Of a stretch of 64,000 nucleotides of DNA, positions 38,440 through 62,813 are shown one piece after another. Source of the DNA: Candidatus Paceibacter sp. (GTDB lineage Bacteria; Patescibacteriota; Patescibacteriia; Magasanikbacterales; UBA922); NCBI GenBank assembly GCA_020725175.1, contig DYFM01000004.1:20015-84014 (forward strand), in the 5' to 3' direction. Below the pieces are notes generated by a model. That model was given only the letters and a program-made list of their open reading frames with translations. It did no database searches and was not told the origin of the DNA. Position 1 is the stretch's first letter. Each line of letters starts with the position of its first letter. A program made the translations under genes and the position numbers.

Positions 38440-38658
38440 ATGAAAAAACTCTATCGATCAAAAAAAGAAAAAATCATTGCCGGAGTTTTGGGTGGTATTG
38501 CTGAGTATCTGAACACTGATCCCACGATTGTGCGGTTGGTGTTTGTGATTCTCTTGATAGCTACCGGACTATTTCCATTTGGGATCGCGTATCTTATTGC
38601 CGCGATTGTGATACCGTATCGCAATGAAAAAGATGAAGGGGTGGTATCGGAGCAGTAG
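38440..38658 (+). CDS. PspC-domain membrane protein
   Basis: 'MKKLYRSKKEKIIAGVLGGIAEYLNTDPTIVRLVFVIL' canonical PspC N-domain, one TM helix. Confidence 0.75.
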   Translation: MKKLYRSKKEKIIAGVLGGIAEYLNTDPTIVRLVFVILLIATGLFPFGIAYLIAAIVIPYRNEKDEGVVSEQ

Positions 38659-38790
38659 GGCATTGAAAGTATTGATTCCGCAGATTAAAATGGATTACTC
38701 GGAATGATTTGATTTGCATTGATTACACAGAATTAAAAGGATTACACTGATTTTTTGTTGAACAATTATTTGAGCTTTTTTTCTATCCAC

Positions 38791-38816
38791 AGCCGTCAAT
38801 TGACGGCTGTTTTTTA
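38791..38816 (+). terminator. rho-independent terminator (agccgtcaattgacggct + T6)
   Basis: 8-bp stem, downstream of PspC-domain gene. Confidence 0.65.
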
Positions 38817-38836
38817 TTGTGTTACGGTGGAAACAT

Positions 38837-38905
38837 ATGAAAAAGAGAATTCCCCAAACGAATGCATGGTGGTGGACATTGCAGAGCGGCAATGTCATGT
38901 TTTGA
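38837..38905 (+). CDS. putative Trp-rich leader peptide (22 aa, MKKRIPQTNAWWWTLQSGNVMF) of a trpS attenuator
   Basis: three consecutive TGG codons at 38867-38875; GGTGGA 6 nt upstream of ATG; immediately followed by alternative hairpins and an intrinsic terminator. Confidence 0.5.
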   Translation: MKKRIPQTNAWWWTLQSGNVMF

Positions 38906-38930
38906 TACCTTCATACGTTTTGAACTATTC

Positions 38931-38965
38931 AAACCTCTCGACATTGCCGAGAGGTTTTTGTTTTG
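38931..38965 (+). terminator. attenuator terminator (AAACCTCTCG-acattgc-CGAGAGGTTT + TTGTTTTG)
   Basis: 10-bp stem + U-tract; loop sequence GACATTGC(CG) duplicates segment 38875-38882 and is complementary to 38887-38896, giving 1:2 / 2:3 / 3:4 alternatives. Confidence 0.6.
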
Positions 38966-39039
38966 ATGTATGTTTCTCTTCATGAAATATTCACCAGCGC
39001 AAAACCTTCAACAACCGCGCTGGAAAAGGAGAACTTGCC

Positions 39040-39207
39040 ATGGCAATTCGGTGGATCCACAACGGTGGCTGGGATCCGCACCCGGAGCCCATTGAGGTTT
39101 CGGATGAGGAGGAGAAGAAGGTGAACGAGCAGCCGGCTGAGGACGCTCAGTCTGCTCCCACGTCGTCTCCCGACGACTGGGACGACTTCACCTGCTTCTT
39201 ATCCTAG
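39040..39207 (+). CDS. GC-rich (about 60% GC, GC3-biased) small acidic ORF, 55 aa (MAIRWIHNGGWDPHPEPIEVSDEEEKKVNEQPAEDAQSAPTSSPDDWDDFTCFLS)
   Basis: AGGAG Shine-Dalgarno 8 nt upstream of ATG; strong codon-third-position G/C bias unlike host genes; followed by 13-bp GC hairpin 39215-39245; below 60-aa cutoff of the ORF track. Confidence 0.45.
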   Translation: MAIRWIHNGGWDPHPEPIEVSDEEEKKVNEQPAEDAQSAPTSSPDDWDDFTCFLS

Positions 39208-39308
39208 TCATCTAGGCCGAGTGCTCAACATCTGAGCGCTCGGCCACCATCATTGCTTGTCATTATTGATAAAATACGCTATTCTACAGCTAACTAATCA
39301 AATTTTTT

Positions 39309-40310
39309 ATGATCAAACCAACCATTCTCTCTGGTATTCAACCAACCGGCAATCTCCATATTGGAAACTATTTGGGTGCCTTGAAGAACATTATTAATTT
39401 ACAAAATTCGGGGGAATACGACATGTATATTTTTATTCCCGATCTACATTCACTCACCGGAAGTCGTACGGCCAACGAAAGGCGAGAGATTATCGCAATT
39501 TTGGCAGTGGAATTTTTGGCAGCCGGACTTGATCCGGAAAAAGTTACTTTTTTTGCTCAGTCACATGTACCTGAGCACGCGGAACTGGGTTGGATATTCA
39601 ATTGTATTACTCCGATTGCCGAGTTGGAACGGATGACTCAATATAAAGACAAAGCGCAACAGCAAGAAAAAAATATCAATGCCGGATTGTTTACTTACCC
39701 GGCTTTGATGGCGGCCGATATTTTGCTTTATCATGCTACTCAAGTTCCGGTCGGAGAGGACCAAATTCAACATGTAGAACTAACTCGAGATATTGCGCGC
39801 TGGTTCAACAATCGTTATCCATCGGCAAATCACCCTGAAGGATATTTTGCCGAACCAAAAGTACTGCTTACTGATTTGCCAAAAGTAAAAAGTCTATTAG
39901 AGCCAACCAAAAAAATGAGTAAGAGTAAAGGTGAGGGTCATGTTATTGAGCTGGCAGATGAACCGGATGTCATTGAAAGAAAACTTAAAAAAGCGGTGAC
40001 TGCAAGTGAAGGCGGGATTGGTGCGCCGGGAGTAGAAAATTTACTTTTGCTTTTGAAGAATTTTGGTAATGCCGAGCTTTACCGGCAGTTTAGTGCTGCG
40101 GAAAAAGACGGTTCAATTCGTTACGGGGATCTCAAAATAGAAGTCGCTCATTCAATTTCGGAATATTTTGTTGATTTTAGAGAAAAGAGAAAAGAATTAT
40201 TGGCTCGGCCAAATGAGATAAAAAATATTTTGTCTACCGGAGCTGAAAAGGCCAGAATAGTGGCCAATAAAACTATGAACGATGTACGAAAGTTGGTTGG
40301 GATATCCTAA
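39309..40310 (+). CDS. trpS: tryptophan--tRNA ligase
   Basis: 'ILSGIQPTGNLHIGNYLGAL' (HIGH-class motif), 'KMSKS' present; 333 aa. Confidence 0.9.
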   Translation: MIKPTILSGIQPTGNLHIGNYLGALKNIINLQNSGEYDMYIFIPDLHSLTGSRTANERREIIAILAVEFLAAGLDPEKVTFFAQSHVPEHAELGWIFNCITPIAELERMTQYKDKAQQQEKNINAGLFTYPALMAADILLYHATQVPVGEDQIQHVELTRDIARWFNNRYPSANHPEGYFAEPKVLLTDLPKVKSLLEPTKKMSKSKGEGHVIELADEPDVIERKLKKAVTASEGGIGAPGVENLLLLLKNFGNAELYRQFSAAEKDGSIRYGDLKIEVAHSISEYFVDFREKRKELLARPNEIKNILSTGAEKARIVANKTMNDVRKLVGIS

Positions 40311-40490: not shown

Positions 40491-40690
40491 GCATACTCGG
40501 CATAATCTTGCGTGATATTTACAAAAAATGTTTATTACCAAAAATTATACGGTGTAAGATCAAGAGGGTTATTTGCACTTTTGTATTTCAATAAAAAAGC
40601 TGGGGTGTATCAATCCACCCGTGGCGGACAGGTTGCTCTGCTGCTTCTATCAAATAGGAACTTATTTCTTCGCAATTTTTCCGAAATAAT

Positions 40691-40726
40691 GTTCCGTTCC
40701 GCCCCTCGCGAGGGGCGGAACGGAAC
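40691..40726. promoter_or_regulatory. 36-bp perfect palindrome GTTCCGTTCCGCCCCTCG|CGAGGGGCGGAACGGAAC upstream of the 1275-aa hydrolase gene
   Basis: perfect 18-bp arms, no following T-tract; GC-rich within AT-rich IGR. Confidence 0.5.
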
Positions 40727-40785
40727 ATCTTTCGGGGAATTGCGTCAGAAAATGTTCGGCAGTGGCTGAATAGTATCTAAAGCAA

Positions 40786-62215: not shown

Positions 62216-62256
62216 AAAACCGTATCTGCAAGAACCAGTACGGTTTTTTTATTTCC
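62216..62256. terminator. bidirectional rho-independent terminator (A6-CCGTATCTG..CAGTACGG-T7)
   Basis: 8-bp stem with one bulge flanked by A and T tracts. Confidence 0.65.
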
Positions 62257-62317
62257 ACGTTTCGCCCTTCGGTAGGCTCAGGGCTCATCAGTCCCGATCA
62301 TCAATCGGAAGACGTGG
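62255..62317 (-). ncRNA. type III hammerhead self-cleaving ribozyme
   Basis: minus-strand RNA 5'-CCACGUC^UUCCGAUUGAUGAUCGGGA-CUGAUGA-GCCCUGAGCCUACCGAAGGGC-GAAA-CGUGG-3': open helix III (6 bp), closed helix I (7 bp, loop UGAUG), core CUGAUGA, closed helix II (5 bp, 11-nt loop), GAAA, GUC cleavage triplet; all invariant core positions present. Confidence 0.8.
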
Positions 62318-62350
62318 TCCCCGGCGCGAGCGCTGGGGAGCACGCCGGGG

Positions 62351-62485
62351 CTAACGCATCAGGTGTCCGATGCATGAGCCCACCCCTCCCGCCACCGCCA
62401 GAGCAAACAGCTGCTCTGGCGTGTGGCCCAGGAACAGGCCCATGGCGGCGCAGGTCAGCGCCGCCACGATGTAGGACTCCGTCAT
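62351..62485 (-). CDS. GC-rich (about 66% GC) 44-aa hydrophobic two-helix peptide (MTESYIVAALTCAAMGLFLGHTPEQLFALAVAGGVGSCIGHLMR)
   Basis: strong GC3 bias (ACG GAG TCC TAC ATC GTG GCG GCG CTG ACC TGC GCC GCC ATG GGC CTG...) in a 38% GC genome; small-residue Gly/Ala zipper-like helices; followed by 8-bp GC hairpin, hammerhead and terminator; frame differs from track ORF 62301..62501. Confidence 0.45.
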   Translation of the reverse strand: MTESYIVAALTCAAMGLFLGHTPEQLFALAVAGGVGSCIGHLMR

Positions 62486-62813
62486 AAAAAAACCCCATCA
62501 AACACCTGCACCACGCAGATGTGAGGGGTCCTCCTACAAAAAAACTACCAGAGAGAGAGAGTTAAAAGTCAATAATAAATCGCTCTACAACCACCTTGTT
62601 CCTTGCCACTTACCTCTGACACCTTTTCCCTATTTCTGCGTTTATTAATATAGAGTACCCGCCCTGGGCGGAAAAAGTAAAACAACAAAACAATAAAACA
62701 ATAAAGCAATTTAGCAATGTGACAATATAACAATCAAACATTTTATACATTAGTTCAATTCAATGAGCCTTCGAAGCCTTGTAAGCTTCGGGGACCTCGT
62801 AAGCCTTTCAACT

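What the first reader, a model, noticed from the sequence alone, without database searches (positions are those of the whole stretch)
39025..39245. Second GC-rich micro-ORF with GC hairpin sits between the Trp attenuator and trpS
About 60% GC over 39040-39245, against about 38% in the flanks. A perfect AGGAG Shine-Dalgarno lies 8 nt before the ATG. The ORF is 55 aa, strongly GC3-biased and very acidic (SDEEEKK..DDWDDF). It is immediately followed by a 13-bp GC stem (ggccgagtgctca-acatc-tgagcgctcggcc) with no U-tract. It has the same architecture as the 62.4-kb cassette (GC-rich small ORF plus GC clamp), here without a ribozyme. It appears to have been inserted into the trpS leader downstream of the attenuator, so it would be co-regulated by Trp availability. 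Two such islets in 64 kb suggests a family of small foreign, possibly selfish, mini-genes.
Basis: seen in the sequence. Interest (0 to 1): 0.6.

Follow-up and report, generated by a model that had tools for sequence, protein, structure and literature searches.

The report
GC-rich structured mini-gene before trpS

Summary
Window 38992-39248 is one of only two strong GC outliers in 64 kb (59.7% GC against 42.6%). It contains AGGAG 8 nt before an ATG, a 55-codon acidic ORF with GC3 of 0.75 (host 0.39), and a 13-bp hairpin (-27 kcal/mol) with no U-tract. The sequence is identical in at least five independent assemblies, so it is not a chimera.

- **Coding signal.** The three-base GC periodicity is significant (p=0.0006). 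The ORF length alone is not: 21% of shuffles give an ORF that long.
- **Ribosome-binding motif.** The host almost never uses one (3 of 28 called genes).
- **No relatives.** Searches of 5.8 billion protein clusters and 1.84 billion representatives, plus Pfam, PHROGs, PADLOC, NCBIfam, PDB and Rfam, found nothing.
- **RNA structure.** The RNA folds better than the protein and codon usage require (synonymous-shuffle z=-3.4). The ORF strand folds best.
- **Relatives.** Those available (TrpS 70% identical or less) lack both the islet and the upstream WWW leader-peptide attenuator.
- **Second islet.** The 62.4-kb islet shows the same signatures more strongly and has a near-threshold hammerhead, but the two share no sequence.

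Best reading: a promoterless, foreign-type small-ORF cassette fixed in the trpS leader and co-transcribed with it. The "selfish family" idea is unsupported, because each islet is single-copy and shows no mobility signature. Function is unknown.

The parts
38992..39248 (+). GC-rich islet (257 bp): a 48-nt 5' untranslated stretch, the ORF and the 3' hairpin
   Evidence: Boundaries come from the cumulative GC walk. It is one of two GC outliers at 2.8 sd or more in 64 kb.
39027..39031 (+). Shine-Dalgarno motif AGGAG, 8 nt before the ATG
   Evidence: Only 3 of 28 called host genes have any SD-like 4-mer.
39040..39207 (+). 55-codon ORF for an acidic peptide predicted to be disordered, with no homologue found
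   Evidence: ORF listed. GC1/2/3 is 0.59/0.43/0.75 and the periodicity has p=0.0006. No homologues and no family hits. AlphaFold2 gives mean pLDDT 62 with no secondary structure.
39101..39212 (+). Long-range helix inside the ORF (arms 39103-39125 and 39187-39212) enclosing two small hairpins. The EEEKKV codons pair with the FTCFLS codons and the stop codon.
   Evidence: Inverted repeats I2 and I3. MFE structures. ORF MFE is -78 kcal/mol against -61.9 +/- 4.7 for synonymous shuffles, with 0 of 200 folding as well.
39215..39245 (+). 13-bp GC hairpin starting 7 nt after the stop codon, with no U-tract
   Evidence: -27.1 kcal/mol on the + strand with one G.U pair, which would be a C.A mismatch on the - strand. 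The scan did not call it a terminator.
38992..38996 (.). Left copy of the 5-bp direct repeat CACCA at the islet boundary. The right copy is at 39245-39249.
   Evidence: Read. It could be a microhomology or target-site scar, but the chance probability is only about 0.05.
39245..39249 (.). Right copy of the direct repeat CACCA
38838..38906 (+). Upstream 22-codon leader ORF with three consecutive Trp codons (38868-38876)
   Evidence: Part of the attenuator that sets the islet's transcriptional context.
38875..38957 (+). Attenuator RNA. Segment 1:2 is 38875-38896. Antiterminator 2:3 is 38887-38896 paired with 38940-38949. Terminator 3:4 is 38931-38957, followed by TTTTTGTTTTG.
   Evidence: I5, I8, I14, D3; -11.6, -21.2 and -14.3 kcal/mol.
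39309..40310 (+). trpS (tryptophanyl-tRNA synthetase), with host-like composition and no SD
   Evidence: Pfam PF00579, E=4.8e-67. GC3 is 0.35.
62255..62534 (-). Second GC-rich islet (280 bp). In order on the minus strand: AGGAGG, a hairpin, a 44-codon hydrophobic ORF (62351..62485), a GC hairpin, and a hammerhead type III-like motif (62254-62318).
   Evidence: It resembles the 39-kb islet in architecture but not in sequence.

Best explanation
The islet is a genuine, fixed, about 255-bp promoterless mini-cassette of foreign type, lodged in the 5' leader of trpS in one Magasanikbacteria (CPR) population.

**Contents**
- A ribosome-binding site.
- A 55-codon ORF for an acidic, disordered peptide with no homologue found.
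- A U-tract-less GC hairpin immediately after the stop codon.

**How it most likely works**
1. It is transcribed on the + strand by polymerases that read through the upstream Trp-codon attenuator. Its level would therefore rise when charged tRNA-Trp is scarce. This step is inferred.
2. The RNA folds into a very stable, largely closed domain. This step is shown computationally.
3. The 3' hairpin is not an intrinsic terminator, so transcription continues into trpS. The hairpin and the structured body would act in cis as a stable block or end-protecting stem-loop within the leader. This step is inferred.
4. The ORF can be translated from its own SD. This step is plausible but not shown.

**Origin of the GC excess**
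It has two compatible sources. One is origin in an SD-using, higher-GC donor. The other is selection on synonymous sites to strengthen RNA pairing.

Nothing shows the cassette to be mobile or selfish.
For: - **Real and fixed.** The sequence is identical in at least five assemblies.
- **Foreign-type.** GC3 is 0.75 against 0.39 in the host, above every host 55-codon window. It has an SD in a host where 3 of 28 genes have one. Its hairpin lacks the T-run that the host terminators at 38789-38810 and 38931-38957 both have. Sharp GC boundaries coincide with a 5-bp direct repeat. The islet is absent from 28 relatives' trpS loci, whose rnj/pspC-trpS spacer ranges from about 20 nt to about 550 nt and carries different inserts.
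- **Coding signature.** Periodicity has p=0.0006. The antisense frame that shares the wobble position is broken by three stop codons.
- **Structured RNA on the ORF strand.** z=-6.2 for 39000-39260 and z=-7.3 in a 388-nt context. The ORF alone gives z=-5.6 against codon permutation and z=-3.4 against synonymous shuffles, whereas host gene segments give z of about 0 to +1. The + strand has more pairs and more G.U pairs than the - strand.
- **Transcriptional context.** The scan called no terminator between the attenuator and trpS, and the trpS start region is not sequestered in the predicted fold.
Against: - There are no homologues and no sequence variation, so neither the ORF nor the structure can be tested by conservation or covariation.
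- An ORF of this length arises by chance in 21% of shuffles.
- A host that does not use SD motifs may not translate an SD-led ORF any better than other ORFs.
- If the islet came from a sampled donor, a protein homologue would be expected among 15 billion proteins. None was found.
- No expression data exist, and the promoter feeding the leader is unclear. A strong terminator at 38789-38810 lies only 28 nt before the leader ATG.
- The cis role proposed for the hairpin is inference only.
Confidence: 0.4

Rival explanations
1. It is neutral foreign DNA. A roughly 250-bp fragment of a higher-GC genome or element was captured by microhomology-mediated illegitimate recombination. CPR bacteria are thought to take up environmental or host DNA. 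The ORF, the SD and the hairpin are relics of the donor with no present function.
For: Foreign-type GC3 and SD. Sharp boundaries with a 5-bp CACCA direct repeat. The ORF has no homologue and its product is predicted to be disordered. The rnj-trpS spacer is a variable region in relatives. A second unrelated islet lies in the same 64 kb.
Against: No donor homologue exists at protein level for this ORF, the 62.4-kb ORF or the L011 GC-rich ORF. The excess RNA structure is strand-specific and exceeds what the codon and amino-acid content give, which is unexpected for a random gene fragment. The sequence is intact and identical across samples.
Confidence: 0.25
2. It is a non-coding cis-regulatory RNA of the trpS leader, for example a sensor that binds tRNA-Trp or TrpRS. 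On this reading the ORF is incidental and the sequence is GC-rich only because it is highly structured.
For: Very strong, strand-specific predicted structure forming a closed domain directly upstream of trpS. The ORF length is not significant by itself. Another lineage, L016, has a different GC-rich and highly structured block (z=-5.7) at the same place, with its own promoter and a terminator just before trpS.
Against: No Rfam family matches, T-box included, even at E up to 10. The three-base GC periodicity (p=0.0006) and the well-spaced SD point to coding. The predicted fold does not sequester the trpS start, and no terminator follows it. The attenuator upstream already provides Trp control. 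The L016 block shows no similarity by blastn, tblastx or nhmmer and gave no hit to the islet covariance model.
Confidence: 0.17
3. It belongs to a class of selfish small-ORF RNA modules, like type I toxin-antitoxin loci or DNA-encoded viroid-like units. Such modules are about 260-280 bp, GC-rich and highly structured, with the 62.4-kb hammerhead-bearing islet as a second member.
For: The two islets have similar size (257 and 280 bp) and similar layout: SD, small ORF with high GC3, then a GC hairpin right after the stop. Both show excess structure on the ORF strand. The 62.4-kb ORF is hydrophobic, as type I toxins are, and is followed by a hammerhead-like motif.
Against: The islets share no sequence, and the covariance-model hit is weak and appears on both strands. 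ORF55 is acidic and disordered with no membrane segment, so it is not toxin-like. The 39-kb islet has no ribozyme. Each islet is single-copy, with no inverted terminal repeats and no polymorphism. No antisense promoter was detected.
Confidence: 0.13
4. It is an assembly chimera or contamination.
For: Only the abrupt shift in composition.
Against: Sequence and junctions are identical in five independent assemblies from different samples and pipelines.
Confidence: 0.02

Closest known systems
Horizontally acquired compositional islets carrying small genes with no homologues
   Same: Sharp GC and GC3 deviation from the host, an atypical translation signal, absence from relatives, and location in a variable intergenic spacer.
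   Different: It is only about 257 bp. It has no donor homologue, no integrase, no tRNA target and no other mobility gene. Its RNA structure exceeds what a random coding fragment would show.
Classical ribosome-mediated attenuators upstream of trpS (predicted in Streptomyces, PMC1262725) and of pheST in gamma-proteobacteria
   Same: The upstream element (38838-38957) fits this scheme: a short leader ORF with WWW and mutually exclusive 1:2, 2:3 and 3:4 hairpins ahead of an aminoacyl-tRNA synthetase gene.
   Different: The islet ORF itself is not such a leader. It has 55 codons, its three Trp codons are dispersed, no antiterminator/terminator pair overlaps it, and its hairpin has no U-tract.
mRNA-stabilising 3' stem-loops and U-tract-less ('I-shaped') hairpins described after genes in high-GC bacteria (recalled from memory, not tested here)
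   Same: A long GC stem placed a few nucleotides after a stop codon with no U-run.
   Different: Function is untested here. The host's own terminators in this region do have T-runs.
Type I toxin mRNAs such as hok and tisB (PMC7708055 describes the structured tisB mRNA)
   Same: A small ORF embedded in a very stable mRNA fold, with the first codons paired to a distal segment.
   Different: ORF55 is acidic and soluble, not a membrane peptide, and no antisense RNA gene was identified. The comparison fits the 62.4-kb islet better.
Integron gene cassettes (a promoterless ORF plus an attC palindrome)
   Same: A promoterless small ORF followed directly by an imperfect palindrome.
   Different: There is no paired R''/R' core: one RYYYAAC sits inside the stem and no GTTRRRY lies at the 3' end. 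There is no cassette array, and no integrase among the gene calls.

Membership tests
Leader peptide of a ribosome-mediated attenuator (role proposed for ORF55) | Short ORF (usually under 35 codons) with clustered codons for the regulating amino acid | tested here: not met
   ORF55 has 55 codons, with Trp at codons 5, 11 and 47 only. By contrast, the upstream 22-codon ORF has WWW.
Leader peptide of a ribosome-mediated attenuator (role proposed for ORF55) | Mutually exclusive antiterminator and terminator hairpins overlapping or following the ORF, with a U-tract on the terminator | tested here: not met
   The scan called no terminator after the ORF. The hairpin 39215-45 is followed by ACCATCATTGC.
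T-box riboswitch (RF00230) | Match to the T-box covariance model (Stem I with specifier, and the T-box antiterminator sequence) | tested here: not met
   Rfam cmscan of 38650-39350 with permissive filters gave no T-box hit at E up to 10. There was none at gathering threshold in the whole window either.
Intrinsic (Rho-independent) terminator | GC-rich stem-loop | tested here: met
   13-bp stem, -27.1 kcal/mol.
Intrinsic (Rho-independent) terminator | Run of U immediately 3' of the stem | tested here: not met
Integron cassette / attC | Inverse core R'' (RYYYAAC) and core R' (GTTRRRY) at the two ends of the palindrome | tested here: not met
   Only one GTTRRRY match (minus strand, 39223-39229) lies inside the stem, with no partner at the 3' end.
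Miniature or IS-derived mobile element | Multiple dispersed copies | tested here: not met
   No second copy in the window, in 160 related loci, in IMG/VR, phage or plasmid collections, or as a protein among 15 billion sequences. Whole-genome nucleotide collections were not searched with the islet itself.
Miniature or IS-derived mobile element | Terminal inverted repeats and a target-site duplication | tested here: inconclusive
   A 5-bp direct repeat CACCA lies at both GC boundaries (chance about 0.05). No terminal inverted repeats were found at the boundaries.
Type I toxin-antitoxin | Small hydrophobic, membrane-active toxin peptide | tested here: not met
   ORF55 has a net charge of about -11, is predicted to be disordered, and has no hydrophobic segment.
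Type I toxin-antitoxin | Cis- or trans-encoded antisense RNA antitoxin | tested here: inconclusive
   No promoter-like site on the minus strand entering the islet. Consensus scans are weak evidence, and the promoter type of this host is unknown.
Self-cleaving ribozyme cassette (as in the 62.4-kb islet) | Match to a ribozyme covariance model | tested here: not met
   No ribozyme family at E up to 10 in 38650-39350. The 62.4-kb islet does have Hammerhead_3 at 34.4 bits, E=2e-5, below the gathering score of 48.5.
Horizontally acquired islet | Composition and signals atypical of the host | tested here: met
Horizontally acquired islet | An identifiable homologue in a plausible donor | tested here: not met

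The most novel reading that the evidence does not exclude
The 39-kb and 62.4-kb islets, and perhaps the L016 block, represent a so far undescribed class of about 260-300-nt modules in CPR genomes. They would be GC-rich, extremely structured and carry a small ORF. One member bears a type III hammerhead. Two readings are possible: DNA-encoded viroid-like or type I-toxin-like RNA elements, or dual-function structured mRNAs whose synonymous sites have been driven to G/C by selection for RNA folding rather than by foreign origin.
Probability: 0.12. Interest if true: 0.8.

Novelty: new variant of a known kind. Interest (0 to 1): 0.45.

Why it matters
CPR bacteria have tiny genomes and short spacers, so a 650-nt leader holding an attenuator and a foreign-looking structured mini-gene ahead of an essential synthetase is unusual.

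If the cassette is expressed, it would be an example of a small gene that has come under amino-acid-starvation control.

If the RNA structure is the selected feature, the case shows how selection for folding can mimic the compositional signature of horizontal transfer. That would be a caveat for methods that detect islands by composition.

Together with the hammerhead-bearing islet 23 kb away, it gives a concrete pair of targets for metatranscriptomics in Magasanikbacteria.

Tried and rejected
- **Protein homology.** A word-indexed search of 5.8 billion clusters returned only the ORF itself. Exhaustive phmmer against 1.84 billion representatives gave two further hits, both inflated by internal repeats in 1647-aa and 1799-aa proteins. 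The best local matches were 8 of 15 and 8 of 20 residues, and both were rejected.
- **Family and structure libraries.** Pfam, PHROGs, PADLOC, NCBIfam and PDB sequences gave nothing. AlphaFold2 predicted disorder, so no fold search was run.
- **Nucleotide similarity.** Nothing in phages or plasmids. The hairpin and the ORF are absent from IMG/VR. There is no similarity to the 62.4-kb islet or to anything else in the window.
- **Relatives.** The genome contigs and metagenome-contig scans with TrpS returned nothing closer than 70% identity. An empty-site comparison was therefore impossible. Neither the islet nor a WW leader was found in those loci.
- **Known RNA families.** No Rfam family matched at E up to 10.
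- **Covariance model.** A single-sequence model of 39064-39247 found only the 62.4-kb islet, at 16.3 bits on one strand and 13.6 on the other. I judged this compositional, not homology.
- **attC cores.** Absent.
- **Paired versus unpaired GC.** This was tried as a test of structure-driven GC enrichment, but shuffles show the same bias, so it is uninformative.
- **Codon-position register of base pairs.** Only mildly skewed, so it was not used as evidence.
- **Extending the contig.** Only the downstream side could be extended. The one further GC-rich spot found there has no ORF and no excess structure.

Full report
**1. What is there**

The window comes from a Candidatus Magasanikbacteria (CPR/Patescibacteria) genome. 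The closest TrpS loci are Magasanikbacteria MAGs at 62-70% identity. The same contig exists as JGI Ga0246236_1000063 and as NCBI GCA_020724605.1.

The local gene order is rnj (RNase J), a pspC-domain gene, a 650-nt spacer, then trpS.

- **GC content.** Inside the spacer, 39040-39245 is 59.7% GC, against 42% and 33.5% in the flanks and 42.6% for the window.
- **Outlier status.** With 150-nt windows, only two segments of the 64 kb exceed the mean by 2.8 sd: 39011-39250 and 62231-62540.
- **Boundaries.** A cumulative GC walk delimits the islet at 38992-39248, which is 257 bp.

**2. Is it an artefact?**

No. The region is 100% identical, junctions included, in two JGI assemblies from different samples and in Logan assemblies of SRR5011273 and SRR13164376. 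The same genome was also deposited as an NCBI MAG. No assembly lacks the islet, so there is also no presence/absence polymorphism.

**3. Coding or not?**

*Against taking the ORF at face value*
- A complete ORF of 55 or more codons appears in 21% of shuffles of this GC-rich block.

*In favour of coding*
- **Periodicity.** GC by codon position is 0.59/0.43/0.75. A spread that large occurs in 0.06% of permutations.
- **GC3 against the host.** GC3 exceeds every one of 2662 host 55-codon windows, whose maximum is 0.655.
- **Antisense frame.** The antisense frame that would share the GC-rich wobble position is interrupted by three stops.
- **Ribosome-binding motif.** It is correctly spaced, in a genome where only 3 of 28 called genes have any SD-like 4-mer. 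One of those three is this ORF and another is the abiEii toxin gene (cruder count of 6 of 44).

*The product*
- It has a net charge of about -11 and is predicted to be disordered (pLDDT 62, no secondary structure).
- It has no homologue. The only other hits in an exhaustive search of 1.84 billion representatives are artefacts of internal repeats. No curated family matches.

**4. RNA structure**

The block folds far better than shuffles.
- z=-6.2 for 39000-39260.
- z=-3.9 without the terminal hairpin.
- z=-7.3 in a 388-nt context, where the block forms a self-contained domain and leaves the trpS start region free.

The excess is not a by-product of the encoded peptide or its codon usage.
- The ORF's MFE is -78 kcal/mol.
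- Permuting codon order gives -57.5 +/- 3.7 (z=-5.6).
- Shuffling synonymous codons, which keeps the protein and the codon counts, gives -61.9 +/- 4.7 (z=-3.4; 0 of 200 fold as well).
- Host gene segments give z between -0.4 and +1.3 in the same tests.

Other features of the fold:
- **Central helix.** It pairs the EEEKKV codons with the last six codons and the stop, so the odd hydrophobic tail FTCFLS may be dictated by the RNA.
- **Strand preference.** The ORF strand gives -113 kcal/mol against -104, and 10 G.U pairs against 4. The terminal hairpin contains a G.U pair that would be a C.A mismatch on the other strand.

I conclude that the + strand RNA is the relevant molecule and that both a coding signature and a structural signature are present.

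**5. Context**

*The attenuator*
- **Position.** A textbook attenuator lies 80 nt upstream of the ORF.
- **Leader ORF.** It is a 22-codon ORF with WWW.
- **Segments.** Segment 1 overlaps the last Trp codon. Segments 1 and 3 are 87% identical and compete for segment 2. The 2:3 helix (10 perfect pairs, -21.2 kcal/mol) occupies the loop and inner stem of the 3:4 terminator (-14.3 kcal/mol plus a T-run).
- **Precedent.** Classical attenuators ahead of trpS were predicted in Streptomyces (PMC1262725).
- **In relatives.** None of 28 relatives has a WW leader.

*Where transcription starts and stops*
- **Downstream of the attenuator.** The scan called no terminator between the attenuator and trpS, so read-through polymerases should transcribe the islet and trpS. 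This is inference.
- **Promoter.** It is unclear. A strong terminator ends 28 nt before the leader ATG, and the best promoter-like site (38663-38691) lies upstream of that terminator.

*Relatives*
- The rnj/pspC-trpS spacer is about 20-35 nt in L006 and L008.
- In other relatives it holds different lineage-specific inserts:
  - L007 has a 99-aa ORF with its own promoter and terminator.
  - L083 has small ORFs.
  - L016 has a 300-nt GC-rich, wobble-periodic, highly structured block.
- None resembles the islet by blastn, tblastx, nhmmer or the covariance model.

**6. The claimed sister islet**

The 62.4-kb islet (62255-62534, minus strand, 280 bp) has, in order:
- AGGAGG;
- a hairpin;
- a 44-codon hydrophobic ORF with GC3 of 0.82-0.84;
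- a GC hairpin starting at the stop codon;
- a hammerhead type III-like motif with an intact CUGAUGA...GAAA core (34.4 bits, E=2e-5 in a 1-kb scan, below Rfam's gathering score);
- a terminator.

Its RNA is even more over-structured: z=-7.1 against codon permutation and -3.7 against synonymous shuffles, with 19 G.U pairs on the ORF strand against 2 on the other. Its ORF also has no homologue.

The architectural parallel is therefore real. There is no sequence similarity, however. The covariance model of the 39-kb islet hits it only at 16.3 bits on one strand and 13.6 on the other, which I attribute to composition.

**7. Interpretation**

The most economical reading is a promoterless, foreign-type small-ORF cassette fixed in the trpS leader.

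*For a foreign origin*
- The SD and the GC3.
- The terminator-less hairpin.
- The sharp boundaries with a CACCA direct repeat.
- The absence from relatives.

*Against a simple transfer from a sampled donor*
- Three of three GC-rich small ORFs tested have no homologue among 15 billion proteins: this one, the 62.4-kb ORF and the L011 ORF.

The synonymous-site structure signal raises an alternative or additional source of the GC excess. Selection for RNA folding acts most freely on wobble positions, and it would produce exactly a GC3 > GC1 > GC2 profile.

I cannot separate these two sources without divergent copies. Nor can I show translation, or a cis effect on trpS. Both remain inference.

Mobility or selfishness has no support:
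- each islet is single-copy;
- no terminal inverted repeats;
- no attC cores;
- no ribozyme in this islet;
- no nearby recombinase;
- no polymorphism.

**8. Verdict**

- **Observation:** confirmed.
partly supported. The foreign-looking composition, the position in an attenuator-controlled leader and the architectural twin hold up. The idea of a selfish family does not.
- **Novelty:** a new variant of a known kind, namely a compositional islet or small-ORF cassette with an unusual, statistically robust RNA-structure component.
- **Interest:** moderate (0.45). It would be higher if the two islets prove to be a class of structured small-ORF RNA modules in CPR genomes.

Noticed in passing
window 62254-62318 (minus strand): A hammerhead type III-like motif (RF00008, 34.4 bits, E=2e-5 in a 1-kb scan, below the gathering score of 48.5) with an intact CUGAUGA...CGAAAC core. 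It lies directly after a 44-aa hydrophobic ORF with no homologue (62351..62485) and a GC hairpin, inside a 280-bp GC-rich and extremely structured islet.
   Followed up: partly
window 38838-38968: A classical Trp attenuator ahead of trpS: a 22-codon leader with WWW and competing 1:2, 2:3 and 3:4 hairpins plus a T-run. It is absent from 28 related trpS loci. Its promoter is unclear, because a strong terminator (38789-38810) ends 28 nt before the leader ATG.
   Followed up: partly
window 38671-38703 and 38718-38750: Two 33-nt direct repeats (79% identical, 47 nt apart). They overlap the best promoter-like site (38663-38691) upstream of the leader and could be a protein-binding operator.
   Followed up: no
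window 40660-40757: A near-perfect palindrome of about 100 nt, with an 18-bp perfect core at 40689-40728, in the AT-rich spacer downstream of trpS. One Logan contig breaks at its centre.
   Followed up: no
L003 3772-3830; L089 about 2890-2950; L092 about 2870-2960: In three related lineages a GC-rich hairpin element (AGGCCGRCTTGCCCCG...CGGGG) sits exactly at the rnj stop codon and is followed by a duplicate of the last roughly six rnj codons (VVIEV*). This looks like a site-specific palindromic insertion.
   Followed up: no
L016 3565-3900: Between rnj and trpS in another CPR genome lies a 300-nt block that is 62-65% GC. It has a TTGACA-17-GATACAAT promoter, an intrinsic terminator, wobble-periodic GC (0.55/0.60/0.76) and excess RNA structure (z=-5.7; synonymous shuffle z=-3.9). 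It has no Rfam family and no similarity to the window's islet.
   Followed up: partly
L011 1780-2085: A GC-rich (58% against 37.5%) ORF of 91-101 aa with no homologue, preceded by an AGGAGGAG SD and flanked on both sides by ATTCCCGC-N4-GCGGGAAT palindromes. It shows no excess RNA structure.
   Followed up: partly
L169 17726-17928 (about 68.5 kb in window coordinates, beyond the window end): A 200-nt spacer of 59% GC between the ATPase and permease genes of a znu-like ABC operon. It has no ORF, no Rfam hit and no excess structure (z=-1.3).
   Followed up: yes
window-wide gene starts (L001 and L169 gene calls): The host essentially lacks Shine-Dalgarno motifs: 3 of 28 called genes have one. The exceptions are the islet ORF, abiEii and a 61-aa ORF.
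   Followed up: yes
L007 3613-3878: A small ORF of about 83-99 aa between rnj and trpS, with its own promoter and terminator. A strong AAAGGAGGTG motif lies 7 nt before an in-frame ATT codon, so it may use an ATT start.
   Followed up: no
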